Source of the DNA: Adineta steineri
Lineage: Eukaryota
Assembly (NCBI GenBank): GCA_905250115.1
Contig: CAJNOI010000163.1
Location: forward strand, 59,707 to 123,706
Length of the DNA stretch: 64,000 nucleotides
Direction: 5' to 3'
The first letter of the stretch is position 1. Every line of letters starts with the position of its first letter. Of the stretch, positions 18,664 to 34,576 are shown in pieces. The notes beneath the pieces were generated by a model. That model did no database searches. It had not been told where the DNA came from and saw nothing but the letters and a program-made list of their open reading frames with translations. Made by a program: the position numbers and the translations under genes.

Positions 18664-21600
18664 ATGTCGAGAACTAAAGTCGAGCGTAAATATGTATGTG
18701 AATTTTATTTTATTTTTCCAGTAGAAATATATTTTTTGCTAATAGAATCCTGCTCAATATGATTCTGCATTTGATTCACTTCCGATTAATTCTCGTCGAT
18801 GTGTTGTCTTTTCTCCTGACAAGTAATAAGACATATTTTAAATAAAAATATTTAATTGATTATTATTCTTCAGTCCAAATAAGAAATTATGCCATTGTAA
18901 TCGAGCTGCAAATGAACATCCTGAAATAGATAATCAATCGAGAGAGAATGAACAATGGCGATTAGATACTCATACAATTAAAGAACCTAACAAAGAACAA
19001 GGTGTTTGTTTAACTAATGGAGCACCGGTATGAACAAAAAATAAAATAAATAAATTATATTGTTTATTTTCAATTGTATAGTATGTTCGATGTGATATTG
19101 AAACTGATCCAACTGTTGTTGAAACAATTCTTTTGGATATTTGGAAGATACCACGGCCAGCACTTTTAATGCAAATAATTGGTGGACATAAATATTTTAA
19201 ATTACAAGGAAAAATGGGAGATACTTTTCTTGATGATTTAGTGAAATTTGTAAGCAAATCAAGTAAGAATAAATTTTTTATTTTTATGTTTATATTGATT
19301 GGAAGTAAATTTTTGAAGACACTTGGTTACTTACAAGTGGAGCTAACGTTGGTATTGTTCAACTTCTTGGACAGACAATTCGCAAACGAAAATTAACCAA
19401 ACCACTAGATAAAACCGTAGCAATTGGTGTTTGTAATTATGGATGTATTAAAAATATAAAAGATTTTCAACGATTAGAACCAAATAATTTATCTTTAATT
19501 GAAAGTCAGGATTTAGTAAGTAGTTAAATCAAGAATTTTGAGTAAAATCTAAGAATTAAAAAAAAAAAGTTTATACAAATTATAAGAAAATATCTCCAGA
19601 GAGAGAAAAAAATGTAAAATATATTAGTAGTTCTTATTTAAAAAAAACGTTTCTTTTTCTATAGAAAAATGTGAATCAATGGCGAGCTGGTGAACAAAGT
19701 TTAGAAATGAATCATACACATTTTTTATTACTTGATGATGGAACAATTCGATATTTTGATATAGGTGATTATCGTACTCGTTTAGTAAAAACTATTGCAC
19801 ATAAACACACAAATCAAACTTTACCAAGTATAATTTATATTATTTTTCAAACAAAAAAAAATAATCAATTAAAATCTTTATATTTTAGTACCAATTGTAA
19901 CATTATTATTCGAAGGTGGTGAAGATTCAATTCGATCGATCTATAATGATCTTCGTAGAAATATTCCCATCATTATTATTAATGTAAATTATTCTAGTAA
20001 TAGAAAACTTATTATTTTATCTTTTAGAATACTGCTCGTATTGCTGATTATCTTGTTCGATGGTTATCAAGAACAACAGAAATGGATCTTGATGTTGATT
20101 GGACAAATCCAGTTGATATTAATGATTATATAATATCAAACAATTCAAATAATTTAGATTCTACTACGAATCCATCTAACAACTCTAATCAAAATCCGTA
20201 CGTAATATATTTAGAATTTATATACGACTTTTTTAATTTTATTACGCGAATACATAATAAGATGCCTGCCCTATAATGTCGCATATAGCAACTCCATCTT
20301 GGACTCAGTGAGGGGTTGGCAGGGGCGACGATTGTGGCGAAAAATCAGTTTTTGAAGTATCTTCGAAGTAGTATGTCATCTTTTTTAACGGCTTTTACTG
20401 AGAAAAAAGAATCGCGAAGGAATGACGGTCACCAATCACTGCGTTTGCCATTGCTTTGATTTAATTCTAACACCTCGGCTAATGGTTCTTCGTTTACTTG
20501 ATCTAATCAATAAATAATTTTCAAAGTTTTACTATGTATTCGCGTAATAAAACTAAAAATATTATGGCTAAGACTTTTGGTATATTTTTATTATTTAGTT
20601 TATTCGTAAAATTTGAAAAATATATCGATTCAATGAGTGATGAATTATTTCAAGCAATCAATGGTACTGATCAAAATCGTTCAAGAAAAATTATAATAAC
20701 AGATAATTTAAAAACAATTAATAATAATATTCTTCTTATGATTCTATATTGTTTACAACCAAAAGTTCGATCAAAAATAAGTATATTTGATTATAATAAA
20801 AATGAAAAATTATCTGAAACAATTCTTCGAAGTATTTGTAAATGTAAGAATTTGCTAATTAAATGTCTTATTTTTTTTCTATTTATTTTTTATAGCTGTT
20901 GAAATTAAAATTCATAAAAAGAAATCAAATTTAAAAAAAACTGATAATTTTATACCACATTTCGATCATCTACTTGAATTAGCAATTGATTGGGATTGTA
21001 TAAATACAGCAAAAGAATGGATTGTTCAAGATTCTCTCGATAATATTTATGATAAAAAATCTATATTTTTTCGAGCATTAACAAAACAACGACATAAATT
21101 TGTTCATTATTTTATTCAACTAGGATCTGAAATTGATGAAATATTTTTTCATCCAAAATTAAATCCATTTGCTTCAAGAAATAATAATAAACGTTATCAA
21201 GAATTCATATCATTATTATACACTGAAGAAGCTATTGTATGTATATGTCCTAGGGGAGATTAAATTTTGAAGGGTGCCAATGTGGGTGTGGGTGGGTGGG
21301 TATGGGTGTGGGTTGGGTGGATGTGGATTAGGTGTGGGCTGGGTGTGAGTATGATATTGGATGCGCTGGATCCACACCCATACTGACACCCTTCAAATTT
21401 TAATGTCCCCTAGGACAAATTAAAATCTTCAACTTTTAGTAGGAAATGTATGGAAAAAAACTATAATTTTAATTTCCCCTATAATATATATATAATAGTT
21501 AATGAATATTTCTATTTATTATTATTAGAATCGTGAAGATTGGTTACTTCGAAATATAATTCAAACTACAAATGATCGAAATGAAAAAATAATTTGTTCA

Positions 21601-24355
21601 ACTGATGATCTTAATCAATTATTTCGAGATCTTATTGGTGGTTATATCAAAAAGCTTTATTATGATACACAAATTGAAGAAGAAGAAGATCGTATGGGTA
21701 TTAAACATTTTACAAATATAATATCACCAATGCCTGATATTGAACAAGGACAATTAGTTCATACGGAAATTATTTATAAACAATTAGCAAAAGATTATAT
21801 TATTCGAGATCTTTTTCTTTGGGCTATCGCTATGAATTATATGGAACTTGCTAAAGTATTTCTTGCTCATATGAAAGATCGTATATGTGGAGCTTTAATA
21901 GCAACTGAAATTCTTTCACATTTACGTGATAAATCATCCGATGCTGTTTATGGTGATATTAAAGTTGATCTTACACGTTGGATTAAATATTTTGAACAAT
22001 ATGCACTTAATTGTATGGATTTATGTTTTAAAAATGATCCAAATATGGCACAAATATTAACTGTACAACGTGTAGAAGCGTTTGGTGATGTAACTTGTTT
22101 ACAGGTTAAAGAAAAAACAAAATTTTAAAACAAAAAATATTTGAATAATTTTTTCTATTAGGTAGCTGATGATGCAAATAGTAAACGATTTGCTTCACAT
22201 CCTTGTTGTAGACAAGCAGAGAATAGTATTTGGTATGATAAATTACATTCTGATCAATTTCATATACGTTATTATATCGGACAAGTAATTGGGATATGGA
22301 CATTAGGTTTACTTGCACCATTTACAGCGCGGTTTCGGTCTGTAAATCAAGTAAGAATTCTTTTGTTTTTCTATAACAAATTTTCGTTTTTTTTGTTATT
22401 GAAAGAACCCACTGCCAACTGAACCAACGTAAATAAAAATAAATAATTTTATTCAATAATAGTTTTTGTTTTTCTGTACTATATTTAGTTTACAACCATA
22501 TGGTATTAATTATTGTGATTCATATGCTATTAATCATTTTGATAACAATATTACTAAAAAATTGTATCAAATCTGGCAATTTCATCAATCTTTACATATT
22601 AAATTTACCTATCATCATGTATGATTTATTAAATAGATAATATAATTTATAAAATATTCTATTTTTTTTAGATTCAATATACAGTTTTTTTATTTTTATT
22701 CAGTTATGTTTTATTATTTAGTTTTGAACCAATTTATGATGATAAATCAAGCATTCATCTAGCAGAAATTTATGTTATTTTAAGCGTTACATGCATGCTT
22801 ATCGAAGAAATTCGTATTGTAATTTAAAACAAAAAAAAGAAATTTTTTTATTTTCTCGTATTTAGTTTTTTAGCCAAGATAGTCTTTCATTGATGGGCAA
22901 ATGTTATAATTATTTTGGTTATTTTTTCAAACAATTATGTTTAATTTCATTTCTTTTATTTTATATTGGTTTAATCTTACGATTTAAAGCTAATGGTTAT
23001 TCTGAAACTTTTCAAGCAGCTAGGTAAATTAGTTTTAAAATCATAAATAATTAAAAAACTTTTTTTTAATAGAGTTTTTTTGGGTTATGATTTATGGTTA
23101 TGGTGGATGAGATCTCTTTCATTCATTACAGTTAGTCCATTTCTTGGACCTCATTTAGTATCAATTGGAAAAATGGTAAGACATATACTAACGAGGGAAC
23201 ATACCAAACTGTCGGAGAGTGTGGGTGAGAGGAAAGAGAAGATCTACACCCACACCCACACCCTATGATAAAAAAATAGTTTTTGTATTTTAGTTAAAAA
23301 ATTTAGCATTTTTTGCTATATTTATCGCTGTTATGATGACTGCATATGGTGTAGCTTCACGATCGATGGCTTTTTATGGTACATTCCCATTTACTGGTCG
23401 AGAAATATTTAAATCCATTCTATATCCTGTTTATTATCTGCTCTATACAAATTTATCGGGTGAATTAAGTGGATTAGATGGTATATATATACATATATTG
23501 TAAAATACTCTGATGATGATGATGATGATTGATATTTTAGAATCGACCTATGATACTACAAGTATTGCTACGCATGTATTACTTGCTTTTCATATGCTTT
23601 TAATTAATGTTCTACTTGTTAATTTATTAATTGCAATGTTCAAGTATATTATTTGATTTTTTGTTTTCTACTATTGAATATTTTGTATTCTATATAATTT
23701 TAGTCAAAGTTTTCAAGATGTTCAATCGATTCAAACTGATATTTGGAATTATCAACAATATGCTGTTGTTAGAGAATATTATGATCGACCACCGTTATTC
23801 CTTCCATTCAGTACAATATTTGATATTATTGCTCTGATTAAAATGTTTTATCATTGGTATCTTCGAGTACGTTATAATTATGCTAATCCATTACAACGTG
23901 TATTTAGTAAGCTAAATTACCGAAGAAATGATAATTATTTTTAATGATTTTTGTTTTAGAAGTGATTGCTGTTCAACCAGAACTTGAACTTGTTTGGCAA
24001 GAATTTGAAAGTGCATCAACATATGCTTATGCACAACGTGAAGCATTGACTAAAATCGATAGGTGATTAAATATAAATAAAAGAAATTATTTTTGTATGA
24101 AATTTCTTATTTTTAGAGGAACCGTGGAAAATGATTCTGTTTCACGAGAATCCGGAGGTACAAGTGGAGATTCATCAGGAAGTAATAATCGAAAAGAAAA
24201 TGATGCAATTACGCAACTACGCAATGAATTTAAAATAGCAATTAGAGATATTCGAAATGATGTATGTTTAATGAAAATAATTATTAATCTTTTAGAACAT
24301 ACAATTATTTTTTTTCTTTAATTTTCAGATACGTCTTATCGCGAAACAAAAATGA
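18664..24355 (+). CDS. TRPM-type (melastatin-like) cation channel gene of more than 20 exons. It spans repeat-bearing introns.
   Basis: Proposed start MSRTKVERKY|NPAQYDSAFDSLPINSRRCVVFSPDNPNKKLCHCNRAANEHPE (compare the TRPM N-terminus ECVYF…CQCGY..HE). MHR region YVRCDIETDPTVVETILLDIWKIPRPALLMQIIGGHKYFKLQ…; LELAIDWDCINTAKEWIV (compare LELAMEWNRVDIAK). Pore/TRP region TSIATHVLLAFHMLLINVLLVNLLIAMF. C-terminus ends IRLIAKQK at about 24355. Two MITEs lie in its introns. Confidence 0.75.
20238..20560. mobile_element. MITE-like insertion of about 320 bp within a TRPM intron, with TIR TTTTATTACGCGAATACATAATAAG.
   Basis: 20238-20262 ttttattacgcgaatacataataag is the exact reverse complement of 20536-20560 cttattatgtattcgcgtaataaaa. 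The interior is GC-richer than the flanks and non-coding. Confidence 0.55.
21249..21415. mobile_element. Hairpin MITE of about 165 bp with 28-bp TIRs and a degenerate TGTGGG-like (telomere-motif) core, in a TRPM intron.
   Basis: TIR cctaggggagattaaattttgaagggtg … cacccttcaaattttaatgtcccctagg. Interior gtgggtgtgggtgggtgggtatgggtgtgggttgggtgg. Confidence 0.65.
23215..23268. repeat. Telomere-motif micro-hairpin (gtgtgggtg…cacccacacccacaccc).
   Basis: Inverted TGTGGG-like and CCCACA-like arms around a short spacer, in a TRPM intron. Confidence 0.5.
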
Positions 24356-28442: not shown

Positions 28443-31400
28443 AATGCCTGCTACGTTTCTTACATTACCGGTAGAGCTTGTCTACCGAATTCTGGATCAT
28501 CAGAGTGATTTAACAATAGTATGCTCAATGCAAAATGTGTGCCAACGGTTCAATGCAATTCTCAGCAGTTACCATCGATACCAAGTAAACTTTGTTTAAT
28601 CATGATTATCTATCTTTCTGCTATTTCTGAATTGCGTTCCATTCTTACCATCTATATCTCTGAGAAAATGCCTGAATAAAATAATGACGAAGCATATTAA
28701 TTCATCAAGCATTAATCTCCCCAAACGATTTATATACAGCACCATAGAAATAGAAAAGAAAAATGAAAATATACGTAAAAATCATATTCTCTTTACTTCT
28801 CTAAAAACTCCACTGTTTCCGCATCGTTTTTACCCGTCCATGTGCAATATTTAGAAGAAAAAGGAAAGGAGAAATTGTCTTTACCTGCATACCTGGACTA
28901 TTATTCATATATCTTTCGCGTTGAAACGAACTGTTTGGTAAAGACTGAAGGCTTCACAGGAGTTGTAGCTGAAATAAATCAATTATCCTTGATCAGGTTG
29001 ATTTTGCAGCCAGAAGATATCTAATATTATATAACATACTACTAGTTTTTTTCATTTCATATGAGCACATATTATTTCAGACAGGCTATACTTCGATTTA
29101 ATTAGTGGCATATGCCAGAATAAAGAAATGTGATAACACTCAGAGAGCCTACATATAGATCTTAAACATTTACACAGTTACGAACAGCATGAGCTCCTAC
29201 GATTCTATTAATTGTTTAATATCTAAATCATGTATAAACCTCTCTACGAACAATTAATCATCAAAAAACAGAGATGAGATAACCTTTTACAGATATGCGA
29301 CAAGATTTACTGAAGAACTACTAAACTGTAAATGATATACTCATAGCTAAATATTCAAATAAAACTTTGTTTACTTGATCACTAAATTCAACATCTATAT
29401 TGAAATATCTCAGTTTTCAATAGCAACACAGAACAATTCTTTGGCGCATAACATGACAGAAACTTCTCTGATCTGACTTGCTTAATTGAATATGATTGGA
29501 CATTCAGAAAGAATACTTGAATATATCGAGCAATACTTGATCATAAGCTTTATCTACAGTAACCCGATTGATTCCTTCTCTCTCATAATATTTTCCTTAA
29601 TTTTTCAACTCTCCAAGGTGGAGATTTGCAAAAAGTGAAATACCGAACTGTTCTATCCTCATCTCTTTCCACAAGATTTAACCAATGTCTCATACAGCAA
29701 TATGATAACTCTTCGTCCCTCTTTATCTATTCAATCTACTAATCTATATTGTTTCATACAGACACTCACCAACTTAAATCTCTTCTTCAATGAGCTCGGA
29801 GATCTTGGAGCACAGCAGCTAGCAAGTGCGTTACGAAATAATAAGGTAGATATCATTTTGTTCCACATCTATTTCATATATCCATCTGTAATTTTTCATG
29901 CAGACACTCACTATATTAAATCTTATATACAATCAAATCGGACATGCAGGAGCACAACATTTAGCAGATGGGTTACGAACTAATATGGTAAACATGATTC
30001 ATTTCCTCATCTATTTCATATATACATCTGCACTTTTTCATACAGACACTTACTACATTAGACCTCGCCCGCAATCACATCAAACATGTCGGAGCACGGC
30101 ATCTAGCAGATGCATTACGAACTAATACAGTAAATATCATTCTTTTCCTCATCTATTTCATATATACACCCGCACTTTTTCATGCAGACACTTAGCACAT
30201 TAAATCTCTGCCACAATGAAATCGGAGCTGTTGGAGCACAGCATCTAGCAAATGCATTACGAAATAATAAGGTAAATATTATTCCGTTCCACATCTATTT
30301 CATATATGTATCTGCACGTTTTTATACAGACACTTAACACATTAAATATTGAGAGCAATCAAATCGGAGATGTCGGTGCACAGCATCTAGCAGATACATT
30401 ACGAAATAATAAGGTAAGTATCATTCTGTTCCAGATCTATGTCATCTACACTTCTTCATGCAGACACTTATCACATTAAATCTTTGGAGCAATCAAATCG
30501 GAGATGTTGGAGCACAGCATCTAGCAGATGCATTACGAAATAATACAGTAAATAGCATTCTCTTTCTCATGTATTTCATACATTCATCTGGACTTTTTCA
30601 TGCAGACACTTACTAGCGTAGATCTCGGCAGCAATCAAATTAGAGATGTTGGAGCACAGCATCTAGCCGATGCCTTACAAAATAATACGGTAATTACCAT
30701 TGTCTTTCTCATCTACTTTATATATTCATCTACGCTTTTTCATACAGGCACTTACCACATTAAATCTTCGCAGCAATCATATCGGACATGTAGGAGCACA
30801 GGATCTAGCAAATGTATTACGAAATAATAAAGTAATTATCATTGTCTTGCTCATCTATCTTATATATCTATCTGCAATTTTTTATGCAGACACTTAGCAC
30901 ATTAAATCTCTACCACAATGAAATCGGAGCTGTTGGAGCACAGCATCTAGCAAATGCATTACGAAATAATAAGGTAAATATTATTCCGTTCCTCATCTAT
31001 TTCATATATCCATCTGCACTTTTTCACTCAGATACTTACGACATTAGATGTCGGCGACAATAAAATCGGATATGCAGGAGTACAGCATCTAGCAGATGCA
31101 TTACGAAATAATACGGTAAAAATCAGTATCTTGCTCATCTATTTTATATATCTATCTGCACTTTTTCATGCAGTCACTTACTAGGTTAGATCTCGCCAGC
31201 AATCAAATTAGAGATATTGGAGCACAGCATCTAGCCGATGCCTTACAAAATAATACGGTAATTACCATTGTCTTTCTCATCTACTTTATATATTCGTCTG
31301 CACTTTTTCATACAGACACTTAGCACATTAAATCTCGACCACGATGAAATCACAGATGTTGGAGTACAGCATCTAGCAAATGCATTACGAAATAATAAGG

Positions 31401-32270
31401 TAATTATCATTGTCTTGCTCATCTATTTCTTGTAACCATATGCGCATTTTGATGCAGACACCTATCACATTAAGTCTCGCGTGGAATAAAATCGGAGCTG
31501 TTGGAGCACAGTATCTAGCAGATGAATTACGAGATAATAAGGTAAATATCATTATATGCTTCGTCAATCTCATATATCCATGCGTACTTTGTCATACAGA
31601 CACTTACCACATTACATCTATCTGGGAATAGAATTGGAGATGTTGGAGCACAGCATCTAGCCGATGCCTTACAAAATAATACGGTAATTACCATTGTCTT
31701 TCTCATCTACTTTATATATTCGTCTGCACTTTTTCATACAGACACTTAGCACATTAAATCTCGACCACGATGAAATCACAGATGTTGGAGTACAGCATCT
31801 AGCAAATGCATTACGAAATAATAAGGTAATTATCATTGTCTTGCTCATCTATTTCTTGTAACCATATGCGCATTTTGATGCAGACACCTATCACATTAAG
31901 TCTCGCGTGGAATAAAATCGGAGCTGTTGGAGCACAGTATCTAGCAGATGAATTACGAGATAATAAGGTAAATATCATTATATGCTTCGTCAATCTCATA
32001 TATCCATGCGTACTTTGTCATACAGACACTTACCACATTACATCTATCTGGGAATAGAATTGGAGATGTTGGAGCACAGCATCTAGCCGATGCCTTACAA
32101 AATAATACGGTAATTACCATTGTCTTTCTCATCTATTTTATATATCCATTTGCACTTTTTCTTGCAGACACTTACCACATTAGATCTCGCGTACAATAAA
32201 ATCGGAGAGAAACTTGAGGGTGAAATCAATGAGTTCATTGTACAGAACAAGAAAGTGTCAAAGATGTGAA
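28443..32270 (+). CDS. F-box / RNI-type leucine-rich-repeat protein. Its LRR region is encoded by about 18 tandem 84-bp exons, each followed by a 58-bp intron.
   Basis: Exon 1 MPATFLTLPVELVYRILDHQSDLTIVCSMQNVCQRFNAILSSYHRYQ|gtaaac is an F-box. From 29761 each exon reads TLTxLNLxxNxIGDVGAQHLADALRNNK (RNI LRR) in phase 0, and each intron is gtaa…atctatttcatatatccatctgcactttttcatgcag. The last exon ends …YNKIGEKLEGEINEFIVQNKKVSKM stop (32270). The exons between 28587 and 29700 are unresolved. Confidence 0.6.
29761..32200 (+). repeat. Tandem array of 142-bp units (84-bp LRR exon plus 58-bp intron), about 18 copies, with a 100% identical 426-bp (3-unit) tandem duplication at about 31217-32124.
   Basis: Unit starts at 29761, 29904, … 30606, 30748, 30890, … 31458, … 31842. 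ORF pairs 31385..31573 / 31811..31999 and 31410..31631 / 31836..32057 are identical and offset by exactly 426 bp. Confidence 0.85.
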
Positions 32271-32773
32271 TGTTGATATCGACGATATACGGATTACTAC
32301 TAGAAAACTATTGATGCATTTATAAATAATTTTTTTTTGTTCTGTGTTATCGTAATCAAATATAAATAAAACTACTTTGCGGTGATATTTGTGATAGTTG
32401 ATGGAACTTTATATCATACTACAAAATTATGCATAATTGAATCTCGTTATTTGAAAAGGGACATATGTTAGAGTACCACAGTGCGTTACGGAATTTCATT
32501 TTTTTCACTTGTTGAATCCATATCTCTTCGATATCAAAAGAAATGTCTTGCAATTTTCATCAGAAATTCAGACTGTTAAGTTCTATTACCAGTAAATAAT
32601 TCATGAGGTTCCATGTTTTAGAAACAGAGTTATGGAAGAAACACTAATTCATCAGTGAAAATTTCAACAAAATCTTTGATATTTTGTTTTTTTCATTTGA
32701 TTCGATGTGAATAGTTTTATAATTTTCTAAATCATCTATTTGCAAAGATCAACTTGTTAAAGAGGGTGTTTTT

Positions 32774-32802
32774 AATGATACGGCGACCACCGAGATCTAC
32801 AC
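32774..32802 (+). other. Exact Illumina P5 flow-cell adapter sequence (AATGATACGGCGACCACCGAGATCTACAC) embedded in the assembly. This is an assembly/contamination artefact.
   Basis: 29/29 nt identity to the P5 oligo, read directly from the sequence at 32774-32802, in an otherwise AT-rich intergenic region. Confidence 0.9.
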
Positions 32803-33592
32803 TCCCATCCTCAAAATCTTTAATGAATTGATAGTATAAAATACGAGTGATAGCGACAGAGGAAGAGAGAGCAAGCACATCCCAAAGAGAGTAGAGAAAG
32901 AAATACTCCGTAGAAAATTCTTGAATTCAACAGGAAGGAAAAAAGAAAGCGAACATGTACTATTAACAAATTAGTAAGGGATGTTCTAGAAAAGGACGTC
33001 TGTCACTGATTATGAACATCTTTCTTGGCATAGTCATGCTTTTTTCAAGGTAAAATAGATCTGATATAAATTTTCTGATGCGCCTTTCATGCGTTAATAT
33101 ACAAACATTTGTATATTTGACAGGCGATCTTTTTTTCCAAAGAACCAACCTTGCAAAAGCAATTCTTTCTGATGTTTGTTTCATTCAAAATAGTTAATTT
33201 GACATTTTATGACGACAGTTATCTGTCTGTTATATAAATAGCACACAGATAGTTCCCACGATTTTTTAAAGAAATATTTTAACTAATGTCTGAACCCTTC
33301 TTCATTTTTTTATAAGAAGATTTTTTCTTGATACATCTCTTAGTGCATTTTTGTAAACTGAGAAAATATTTTTATCTTTAATGGACAGGATACTAAAAAT
33401 CATACTGTCAATACACACCTCACAGGAGAAAAAATGAGAGAACATCCGAACGTCTTATTCCGTATATATACACATTAGATAATTTACTTGACAGGCATAA
33501 TTTTTATTTCTGGAATATACTTAGACGATTACTTTGGATAGTTTGAAAAAATATTAATCTACTACAAACACGATATTCTTCGAATATATTAA

Positions 33593-34576
33593 ATGGCTAG
33601 TATTACATTGAAAGACATTGCTTTCGTCAATAACACAGCAACGAATGAAACATTATCATATCCAGTCAGCGGAATAGTTTTATCAAAAATGACTCGTTTT
33701 TGGATTCTTCTTATTTTTGAAGTTCCATCACTTTTCTGTTGTGTTTTATTACTTTATTATTTATGCTTTGATCGGATACAAAGAAATGCACTCAATAACC
33801 ATGTCATCATTGCTATTCTCATCTTTAATTTTTTCTTGCTGATTATTGATATTCCAAATTATCTTACACTTTTTCGTCTTCACTATGTCTGGCCATCAAC
33901 ACCAATTAACTGTTATATCTGGTTAGTTGTAGATATAGCTGGCTATTATGGATTAGGTATACTTATGGCATGGGCTTCGATCGAAAGGCACATTTTAGTA
34001 TTTCATCATCAATGGCTTAATACTTTAAAGAAACGTATTTTTATTCATTATATTCCATTAGCTGCAATTATTTTGTATCTGTCTATTTTCTACACTATAC
34101 TTATTTTCTTTGTGCCTTGTGATCATACATTAAATTACGCAGCATATACTTGTGGAGGTGCATGTGCGTATGAAATAGCAGCTCTTTCGATGTATGATGG
34201 ATTCGTCAATGGTGATATACCCTGTTTTGTAACTACAATATTCAACATTTTACTGGTTATTCGTGTTATCAAACAAAAACAACGTCTTCATCAACATGTA
34301 CAATGGCGTAAACATCGAAGAATGATTATACAACTGCTCGCGTGTGCCGGACTCTTTATTGTATTCAATCTTCCTCTGGTATGCATTTATGTCGCTCAAG
34401 CATTCGGTGTACCGTATGGTGCAACTGGTCAATTTGAGTATTTTGTTTATTTTCTGGCTTATTTCATTATGCTTTGGATGCCTTTCGTGTGTCTTGGATC
34501 ATCACCAGAAATCTTATCAAAAATAAAGAGAATAATGAAACCACAACGTATCAACACTACAATTACTCCACATTAA
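33593..34576 (+). CDS. Intronless seven-transmembrane receptor-like protein (rhodopsin-class-like GPCR, orphan), 327 aa.
   Basis: Seven hydrophobic segments. ASIERHILVF sits at the TM3 end (E/DRY-like ERH). Basic ICL3 KQKQRLHQHVQWRKHRR. NLPLV…WMPFVCL in TM6/7. Confidence 0.5.
   Translation: MASITLKDIAFVNNTATNETLSYPVSGIVLSKMTRFWILLIFEVPSLFCCVLLLYYLCFDRIQRNALNNHVIIAILIFNFFLLIIDIPNYLTLFRLHYVWPSTPINCYIWLVVDIAGYYGLGILMAWASIERHILVFHHQWLNTLKKRIFIHYIPLAAIILYLSIFYTILIFFVPCDHTLNYAAYTCGGACAYEIAALSMYDGFVNGDIPCFVTTIFNILLVIRVIKQKQRLHQHVQWRKHRRMIIQLLACAGLFIVFNLPLVCIYVAQAFGVPYGATGQFEYFVYFLAYFIMLWMPFVCLGSSPEILSKIKRIMKPQRINTTITPH

What the first reader, a model, noticed from the sequence alone, without database searches (positions are those of the whole stretch)
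32774..32802. Exact Illumina P5 adapter 29-mer embedded in the sequence: probable chimeric join or contamination
AATGATACGGCGACCACCGAGATCTACAC is the Illumina P5 flow-cell oligo. It occurs with 29/29 identity at 32774-32802, in an AT-rich intergenic stretch between the F-box/LRR gene and the 7TM receptor gene. Adapter sequence inside an assembly marks unremoved adapter reads and often a false junction. Synteny across about 32.7-32.9 kb should not be trusted without read support.
Basis: partly seen in the sequence, partly recalled or inferred. Interest (0 to 1): 0.7.

Follow-up and report, generated by a model that had tools for sequence, protein, structure and literature searches.

The report
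Sequencing adapter overwrote 21 genome bases
The Illumina P5 sequence is really there, but it is a laboratory artefact that overwrote 21 bases of a rotifer intergenic region at a spot that naturally matches the end of the P5 oligo; the surrounding assembly is correctly joined.

Summary
The P5 29-mer sits at 32774-32802 with 29/29 identity, none is expected by chance, and no other adapter part occurs in the window.

The window is Adineta steineri (bdelloid rotifer), very probably the 10x Genomics/Supernova assembly. Eight homologous copies from seven loci lack P5. Loci from three other individuals are collinear with the window for about 10 kb on each side, so there is no false junction.

At the site they read AGGTGTCATTACTCTTTTCAT-CGAGATCTACAC. 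The window reads TTTTAATGATACGGCGACCAC-CGAGATCTACAC. The last 12 nt of "P5" are therefore native genome. Only 17 nt of P5 plus four T's are foreign, and they replace exactly 21 nt in register.

In 124 P5 copies in bacterial and archaeal assemblies, wherever enough upstream sequence is present P5 follows a T-run in almost every case, which I read as the poly-T linker of the flow-cell oligo. About 8% are the same internal, in-register type.

Best explanation: the surface-bound P5 oligo primed inside library molecules at the native 12-mer. Read 2 then called P5 plus linker, and the signal of full-length strands resumed in register. Supernova kept this as a variant path.

It is a technical artefact of low biological interest. 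The remedy is to replace 21 bases, not to split the contig.

The parts
32770..32773 (+). TTTT, foreign. Interpreted as the 3' end of the poly-T linker that tethers the P5 oligo to the flow cell. It replaces native AGGT. The T at 32769 is native or ambiguous.
   Evidence: all seven other sequences in that alignment read AGGT here; in public assemblies, wherever enough upstream sequence is present, P5 follows a T-run in almost every case.
32774..32790 (+). AATGATACGGCGACCAC, the 5' 17 nt of P5, foreign. It replaces native GTCATTACTCTTTTCAT with no length change.
   Evidence: the 21-nt block 32770-32790 has 15/21 mismatches to L001, against 13/169 in the flanks (binomial P = 4e-14).
32791..32802 (+). 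CGAGATCTACAC, native genome sequence that happens to equal the 3' 12 nt of P5. This is the proposed internal priming site.
   Evidence: identical in L001-L004. One mismatch in L005a, three in L005b. L127 has CGAGACCTACAC; about 6 such 12-mers are expected per 171-Mb genome and 0.002 per 64-kb window.
32803..32805 (+). TCC, where relatives have CTA or CCA. Two of the three bases are unique to the window. TC equals the next two bases of the TruSeq universal adapter. Origin undecided: natural variants or a residual mixed signal.
28444..32310 (+). Upstream neighbour: an F-box-like plus LRR_6 gene with a 142-bp exon+intron LRR array at 29752-32208. Not affected by the artefact.
   Evidence: The homologous gene is called at L001:7002-8593.
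33593..34576 (+). Downstream neighbour: an intronless 7TM (rhodopsin-family-like) receptor gene. Not affected. Used as the anchor to fetch homologous loci.
23240..23249 (+). Internal control: a native 10-nt match to the P5 3' end (AGATCTACAC) that is not overwritten.
   Evidence: the upstream 21 nt are identical to L002 and L003.

Best explanation
This is a sequencing-chemistry artefact and not a misassembly.

Shown: the A. steineri genome has, in the intergenic region upstream of the 7TM receptor gene, a native 12-mer CGAGATCTACAC identical to the 3' end of the Illumina P5 oligo. In this assembly the 21 nt just upstream of it are replaced, base for base, by TTTT plus the first 17 nt of P5. 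Both flanks are otherwise collinear with other individuals.

Inferred mechanism: on the HiSeq X flow cell, surface-bound P5 oligos (5'-poly-T linker-P5-3') annealed by their 3' end to this internal 12-mer in library strands and were extended. This produced truncated strands (surface-T(n)-P5-downstream genome-R2'-i7'-P7') in the same cluster as the full-length strands. Read 2, primed from the downstream end, reads identical sequence on both kinds of strand until it reaches the 12-mer. The more abundant truncated strands then give reverse-complement P5 and a few A's from the linker, and then they end. The remaining full-length strands supply the signal from that point on, so the read returns to true genome in register.

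Every library molecule covering the site is susceptible, so many reads carry the same 21-nt 'variant'. Supernova received untrimmed reads, treated the variant as a bubble arm and emitted it.
For: 1. The P5 match is exact and is the only adapter fragment in the window. No read-primer or index part follows it.

2. The organism and data type fit. The receptor is 100% identical to A. steineri CAF1146618.1/CAF1318544.1, on a 200,132-bp contig. The A. steineri 10x pseudohap assembly has an N50 of 200.1 kb. Its linked-read library was sequenced on HiSeq X and assembled with Supernova 2.1.1. The paper describes adapter filtering only for the other Illumina libraries (PMC7943196).

3. Eight homologous copies lack P5 and read AGGTGTCATTACTCTTTTCAT (AGGTGTAACTATTCTTTTCAT in L127) followed by CGAGATCTACAC or a near variant. 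They come from seven loci: six assemblies of three individuals, one of which carries a second paralogous copy, and one more distant ENA contig. The alignment has no gap at the site.

4. The 21-nt block has 15/21 mismatches against 13/169 in the flanks, P = 4e-14.

5. Collinearity holds for about 10 kb on each side.

6. About 6 such 12-mers are expected in the whole genome, so an adapter landing exactly in register on one is not a coincidence.

7. There is support beyond this window. Among 124 P5 copies in GTDB species-representative genomes, wherever enough upstream sequence is present P5 follows a T-run in almost every case. The run is typically 10 or more T's, followed by poly-C in some contigs. 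I read this as the linker signature. Nine or ten copies are internal 'T-run + P5 + genome' cases with no read-primer part, and 8-9 of 10 keep a single reading frame across the site, where about 1/3 would be expected for random joins.

8. In L045 (aspartokinase) FFNDTATT replaces AALNADVC without a gap, and EIYT, encoded by GAGATCTACAC, falls on the conserved EIY[ST] motif. Close relatives L128 and L129 show the native DNA GCGACGCTCGGCGCGGATCTCTGCC-AGATCTACAC at the same length. L039 (prephenate dehydratase) is also in register.

9. Several contigs resume genome sequence right after complete adapter + P5 + T-run (L034, L077, L097, L107, L111, L120). This fits base calls being taken over by a second template once the first one ends.
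Against: No reads were available, so the mixed-cluster step, the Read 2 orientation and the Supernova bubble step are all inferences.

The T-run here is only 4-5 long, against 6 or 10 in most other cases. I cannot explain that difference.

Assignment of the window to the 10x assembly rests on contig length and accession pattern, because the window's own contig could not be retrieved.

A native 10-nt match at 23240-23249 is not overwritten. The L045 relatives suggest that 10 nt can suffice, so the outcome is probabilistic and not a sharp rule.

The poly-T linker sequence of flow-cell oligos and the 10x SI-PCR primer sequence are recalled from my own knowledge of Illumina and 10x documentation. 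They were not checked here.
Confidence: 0.65

Rival explanations
1. Chimeric join or misassembly: unremoved adapter reads glued two unrelated pieces of genome together at about 32.8 kb.
For: Adapter sequence inside contigs can mark false joins. One such case with a full TruSeq adapter and an N was seen in the GTDB scan (L122).
Against: Both flanks are contiguous and collinear in assemblies of three other individuals and in a distant relative. The replacement preserves length, and the 3' 12 nt of the 'adapter' are native.
Confidence: 0.02
2. Mispriming in solution during library PCR, by an amplification primer ending in ...GATCTACAC at the native 12-mer. An assembler or gap-filling step then stitched the adapter-headed reads to the upstream contig.
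For: It explains the dependence on 3' homology. Mispriming of index primers is visible elsewhere, for example L066 and L103, where P5 + i5 + a partial Nextera primer runs into genome.
Against: Solution primers carry no poly-T, yet TTTT precedes P5 here and T-runs of 6 to about 12 T's precede it in nearly all the internal cases. Misprimed products have nothing upstream of P5, so the exact in-register return to genome would have to arise by chance in the assembler. That would have to happen independently in assemblies built by Supernova and, judging by contig names, several other assemblers. From my own recollection, the 10x SI-PCR primer extends into the Read 1 site, so its 3' end is not ...ACAC.
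Confidence: 0.12
3. Post-assembly consensus or polishing error: adapter-containing reads were aligned end to end without clipping, and a majority vote substituted the bases.
For: It would give a length-preserving substitution.
Against: The paper describes no polishing step for the 10x assemblies, only Supernova followed by ARKS. Aligners normally soft-clip 15 mismatches in 21 nt. The reads would still need an origin such as internal priming, so this is a variant of the last step and not a separate cause.
Confidence: 0.1
4. Genuine genomic sequence of this rotifer lineage that matches P5 by chance or through real integration of synthetic DNA.
For: Bdelloids take up foreign DNA (established knowledge), and 12 of the 29 nt are indeed native.
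Against: The other 17 nt plus the T's match a synthetic oligo and its linker exactly. They differ at 15/21 positions from all eight homologous copies, which are otherwise 88-94% identical. The same in-register pattern occurs in unrelated bacterial assemblies.
Confidence: 0.005

Closest known systems
Ordinary Illumina adapter contamination of assemblies (read-through of short inserts; e.g. Moeller et al. 2024, PMC11536531)
   Same: Same synthetic sequence and the same ultimate cause: untrimmed reads reached the assembler. The T-run before P5 is shared with the read-through cases in public assemblies.
   Different: The ordinary kind sits at contig ends and carries the read-primer and index parts next to P5 (98 of 124 cases). 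This one is 32 kb inside a contig, has no read-primer part, replaces native bases in register, and depends on a native match to the P5 3' end.
Internal, in-register 'T-run + P5 + genome' cases in GTDB genomes (L039, L040, L045, L071, L072, L090, L096, L098)
   Same: There is no read-primer part, a T-run precedes P5, both flanks are genomic, and the reading frame is kept across the site. For L045 the native 3' match and the equal length were shown at protein and DNA level.
   Different: Those have 6 or 10-12 T's where the window has 4-5. They come from other library types and, judging by contig names, other assemblers. Most lie in coding sequence, where they corrupt 8-10 residues. The window's case is intergenic.
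Adapter-marked chimeric scaffolds (false joins)
   Same: Adapter sequence lies in the interior of a sequence record.
   Different: The flanks here are truly adjacent in the genome.

Membership tests
Illumina P5 oligo-derived contamination | Identity to the P5 29-mer beyond chance | tested here: met
   29/29 identity. 0 of 100 shuffles gave a match even with up to 3 mismatches.
Illumina P5 oligo-derived contamination | Absent from the homologous position in independent assemblies of the same species | tested here: met
   L001-L006 and L127 lack it. The native 21 nt are conserved.
Illumina P5 oligo-derived contamination | Preceded by T's from the flow-cell linker | tested here: met
   TTTT at 32770-32773 replaces native AGGT. 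T-runs precede P5 in nearly all public cases that have upstream sequence. That the T's come from the linker is from my own knowledge.
Ordinary short-insert read-through adapter contamination | P5 adjoined by an index and/or a read-primer sequence (TruSeq or Nextera) | tested here: not met
   ACAC is followed by TCCCATCCTCAAAATC, which is genome. No TruSeq or Nextera part occurs anywhere in the window.
Ordinary short-insert read-through adapter contamination | Located at a contig end | tested here: not met
   The site is at 32.8 kb of a 64-kb window, with collinear genome on both sides.
Chimeric join / misassembly | The flanks are not adjacent in independent assemblies | tested here: not met
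   End-to-end alignment across the site, and about 20 kb of collinearity with three other individuals.
In-register P5 overwrite by internal priming (class defined here) | Native sequence matches the 3' end of P5 | tested here: met
   CGAGATCTACAC is native in L001-L004. About 6 sites are expected per genome.
In-register P5 overwrite by internal priming (class defined here) | Length-preserving replacement upstream of the match | tested here: met
   21 nt for 21 nt, with no gap.
In-register P5 overwrite by internal priming (class defined here) | Single reads (Read 2, one orientation) carry P5 flanked by genome on both sides, with a quality drop at the junction | not testable with these tools

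The most novel reading that the evidence does not exclude
The window is one instance of a systematic and little-described Illumina artefact. Surface P5 oligos prime inside inserts wherever the genome matches about 10-12 nt of the P5 3' end. Mixed clusters then yield reads in which P5 plus linker overwrites about 20-30 bases in register. Such sites survive in public assemblies (about 8% of the P5 hits in the capped GTDB scan), silently corrupt 8-10 codons when they fall in genes, and would be wrongly handled by adapter screens that trim or split contigs.
Probability: 0.55. Interest if true: 0.25.

Novelty: not a real feature. Interest (0 to 1): 0.1.

Why it matters
This has no consequence for rotifer biology. 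The site is intergenic and 21 bases are wrong.

It has some practical value for curation. The contig should not be broken at this point. The 21 nt at 32770-32790 should instead be restored from reads.

The same in-register overwrite occurs inside genes in public bacterial assemblies. One example is an aspartokinase whose residues AALNADVC (as in PDB homologue 3ab4) became FFNDTATT. It mimics a divergent protein segment there, and a check for frameshifts will not catch it.

Tried and rejected
1. I looked for other adapter parts in the window (P7, TruSeq, Nextera, small-RNA, mate-pair, PacBio, ONT, TSO). None was found, so this is not a full adapter read-through.

2. I looked for inverted or direct repeats at the site that would indicate a palindromic chimera. 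Nothing relevant was found. The only structure is the 142-bp LRR array further upstream.

3. I tried to retrieve the window's own contig, or the alternative haplotype arm of the same sample, by exact protein look-up of the receptor and two other ORFs. None is on record, so the native sequence of this very clone could not be shown.

4. I searched the literature for a description of internal priming by flow-cell oligos or of in-register adapter overwriting. I found only the general contig-end contamination paper. One search failed on a term that was too short.

5. I considered that the 3 bases after P5 (TCC) might be the start of the TruSeq adapter. Only TC matches, so this stays undecided.

6. 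L092 and L103 from the GTDB set did not give a clear single frame across the site and were not counted as support.

Full report
**Observation.** The 29-mer AATGATACGGCGACCACCGAGATCTACAC is present once, on the + strand, at 32774-32802 with no mismatch. None of 100 dinucleotide-preserving shuffles gave a match even with three mismatches allowed. A screen with 17 adapter and oligo sequences found no other adapter fragment in the 64 kb. The screen covered P7, the TruSeq read-primer sites, Nextera, the small-RNA adapters, the mate-pair junction, PacBio, ONT and the 10x TSO. It allowed about 20% substitutions and also checked shared 11-mers. The bases after ...ACAC are TCCCATCCTCAAAATC. They are not the TruSeq (TCTTTCCC...) or index+Nextera continuation that normally follows P5.

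**Context and source.** The site lies between two genes.
- Upstream is a gene with an F-box-like first exon and a long array of RNI-type LRRs (Pfam LRR_6, E = 2e-30). The LRRs are encoded by a 142-bp exon+intron tandem array at 29752-32208.
- Downstream is an intronless 327-aa 7TM receptor ORF at 33593-34576.

The receptor is 100% identical to an Adineta steineri protein (CAF1146618.1/CAF1318544.1) seen on a contig of 200,132 bp.

These genomes come from Nowell et al. 2021 (PMC7943196). The A. steineri 10x Genomics linked-read library was sequenced on HiSeq X. It was assembled with Supernova 2.1.1 into pseudohap and megabubbles versions and then scaffolded with ARKS. Adapter filtering is described only for the other Illumina libraries. 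The pseudohap assembly has an N50 of 200.1 kb. I infer that the window comes from the 10x assembly. I could not retrieve its own contig.

**Comparison with homologous loci.** Near-identical receptor proteins led to six loci from the reference and maximum-haplotig assemblies of three other A. steineri individuals (L001-L006). A more distant ENA contig was also found (L127). None contains P5 on either strand.
- Window 32200-33700 aligns end to end at 93.7% with L001-L004 and at 87.8% with L005.
- The window is collinear with these loci from about 23.2 kb to 44.5 kb.

The two flanks of the adapter are therefore truly adjacent in the genome.

**Anatomy of the site.**
- The relatives read GGGTGT-AGGTGTCATTACTCTTTTCAT-CGAGATCTACAC-CTACATCC.
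- The window reads GGGTGT-TTTTAATGATACGGCGACCAC-CGAGATCTACAC-TCCCATCC.

There is no gap at the site. The last 12 nt of 'P5' (32791-32802) are native sequence. They are identical in four assemblies, and the other copies have one to three differences. The foreign part is the 5' 17 nt of P5 (32774-32790) plus four T's (32770-32773), and it replaces exactly 21 native bases.

That block has 15/21 mismatches to L001, against 13/169 in the immediate flanks (P = 4e-14). At 29% GC only about six copies of this 12-mer are expected in the 171-Mb genome. The adapter sits exactly in register on one of them, which points to a homology-driven event and not to random contamination.

A native 10-nt match to the P5 3' end at 23240-23249 is not overwritten.

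**Is this a one-off?** A capped scan of one genome per bacterial or archaeal species returned 120 loci with 124 P5 copies.
- Wherever enough upstream sequence is present, P5 follows a T-run in almost every case. The run is typically ten or more T's, and in some contigs poly-C follows it.
- From my own knowledge, the flow-cell P5 oligo is tethered by a poly-T linker, and reads that run to the end of a template give rc(P5) plus A's. The T's here fit that.
- 98 of the 124 copies continue into TruSeq or Nextera sequence, and most of these lie at contig ends. That is the ordinary pattern described by Moeller et al. 2024 (PMC11536531).
- Nine or ten copies are of the window's type. They are internal, have a T-run (mostly 6 or 10-12 T's) followed by P5, and then run straight into genome with no read-primer part.
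- In 8-9 of these 10, the long ORF on one side continues in the same frame on the other side. Random joins would do so about one time in three.

Two cases were examined in more detail.
- L045 (aspartokinase) aligns to PDB aspartokinases without a gap. FFNDTATT stands where 3ab4 has AALNADVC, and EIYT, encoded by GAGATCTACAC, falls on the conserved EIY[ST]DVDGVYT motif. Its close relatives L128 and L129 carry the native DNA GCGACGCTCGGCGCGGATCTCTGCC-AGATCTACAC at the same length. That is an in-register overwrite with a native 3' match of at least 10 nt.
- L039 (prephenate dehydratase) is also in register against 6vh5.

Several further contigs resume genome sequence directly after complete adapter + P5 + T-run (L034, L077, L097, L107, L111, L120). 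This looks like base calling continuing on a second template once the first one has ended.

**Mechanism.** The shown parts are:
- a native 12-nt match to the P5 3' end;
- an in-register replacement of the 21 nt upstream by T's plus P5;
- intact flanks;
- recurrence of the same pattern in assemblies built from other library types and, judging by contig names, with other assemblers.

The rest is inferred. Surface P5 oligos primed internally on library strands at the 12-mer during cluster generation on the HiSeq X. This gave truncated strands that still carry the Read 2 primer site. Read 2 coming from downstream reads the same bases on truncated and full-length strands up to the 12-mer. It then follows the more abundant truncated strands into rc(P5) and a few linker A's. 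When those strands end, it follows the full-length strands, so it returns to genome in register. The site is hit in every molecule, so the 'variant' is well supported, and Supernova kept it as a bubble arm.

The T's argue against solution PCR primers as the source. The in-register return within single assemblies from different pipelines argues against an assembler-made junction.

Some weaknesses remain.
- No reads were examined.
- The T-run here is only 4-5 long.
- The three bases after the match (TCC against CTA or CCA) are unexplained.

**Verdict.** The adapter identification is right, and the 'chimeric join' interpretation is wrong. It is a technical artefact confined to 32770-32790 in an intergenic region. 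It has no biological meaning and only minor methodological interest. The correct remedy is to restore 21 bases, not to split the contig.

Noticed in passing
window 31217-31709 and 31643-32135: An exact 493-bp repeat at offset 426, which equals three 142-bp LRR exon+intron units, lies inside the LRR array. L001-L004 lack these three units. It could be a very recent tandem duplication or a Supernova repeat-resolution error.
   Followed up: partly
window 29752-32208: The LRR domain is encoded as a 17-copy tandem array of 142-bp units. By my reading of the ORFs and the GT donor-like motif, each unit holds one roughly 84-nt LRR exon and a roughly 58-nt intron; this split was not tested. The period is therefore not a multiple of three.
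   Followed up: partly
L005:625-1595 and L005:18834-20984: The As_ASTE805 assembly carries a second copy of the LRR-receptor intergenic region and of the receptor 3' part within 20 kb. This is either a local duplication in that individual or a scaffolding artefact.
   Followed up: no
window 23250-23265: A CCCACA-type microsatellite directly follows the native AGATCTACAC 10-mer. It differs from L002 and L003 downstream.
   Followed up: no
L034, L077, L097, L107, L111, L120 (GTDB genomes): Long genomic sequence continues directly after complete adapter + P5 + a 6-10 T run. It looks as if a second template in the same cluster took over base calling once the short template ended.
   Followed up: partly
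L045:450-1661 (uncultured Butyricicoccus sp. UMGS682, UQVU01000008.1): The aspartokinase ORF has 8 residues corrupted (FFNDTATT) by an in-register P5 overwrite. Close relatives carry native sequence there.
   Followed up: yes
L066 and L103 (GTDB genomes): P5 + i5 index + a partial Nextera primer (TCGTCGGCAGCGT / TCGTCGGCA) runs directly into genome. This looks like mispriming of the index PCR primer, a different route from the one inferred for the window.
   Followed up: no
window 1275-1334 and 21281-21345: Short G-rich tandem repeats: (GGGTGGGCTTCTAATATG)x3.4 and (TGTGGGTTGGGTGGATGGGAATAGG)x2.5.
   Followed up: no
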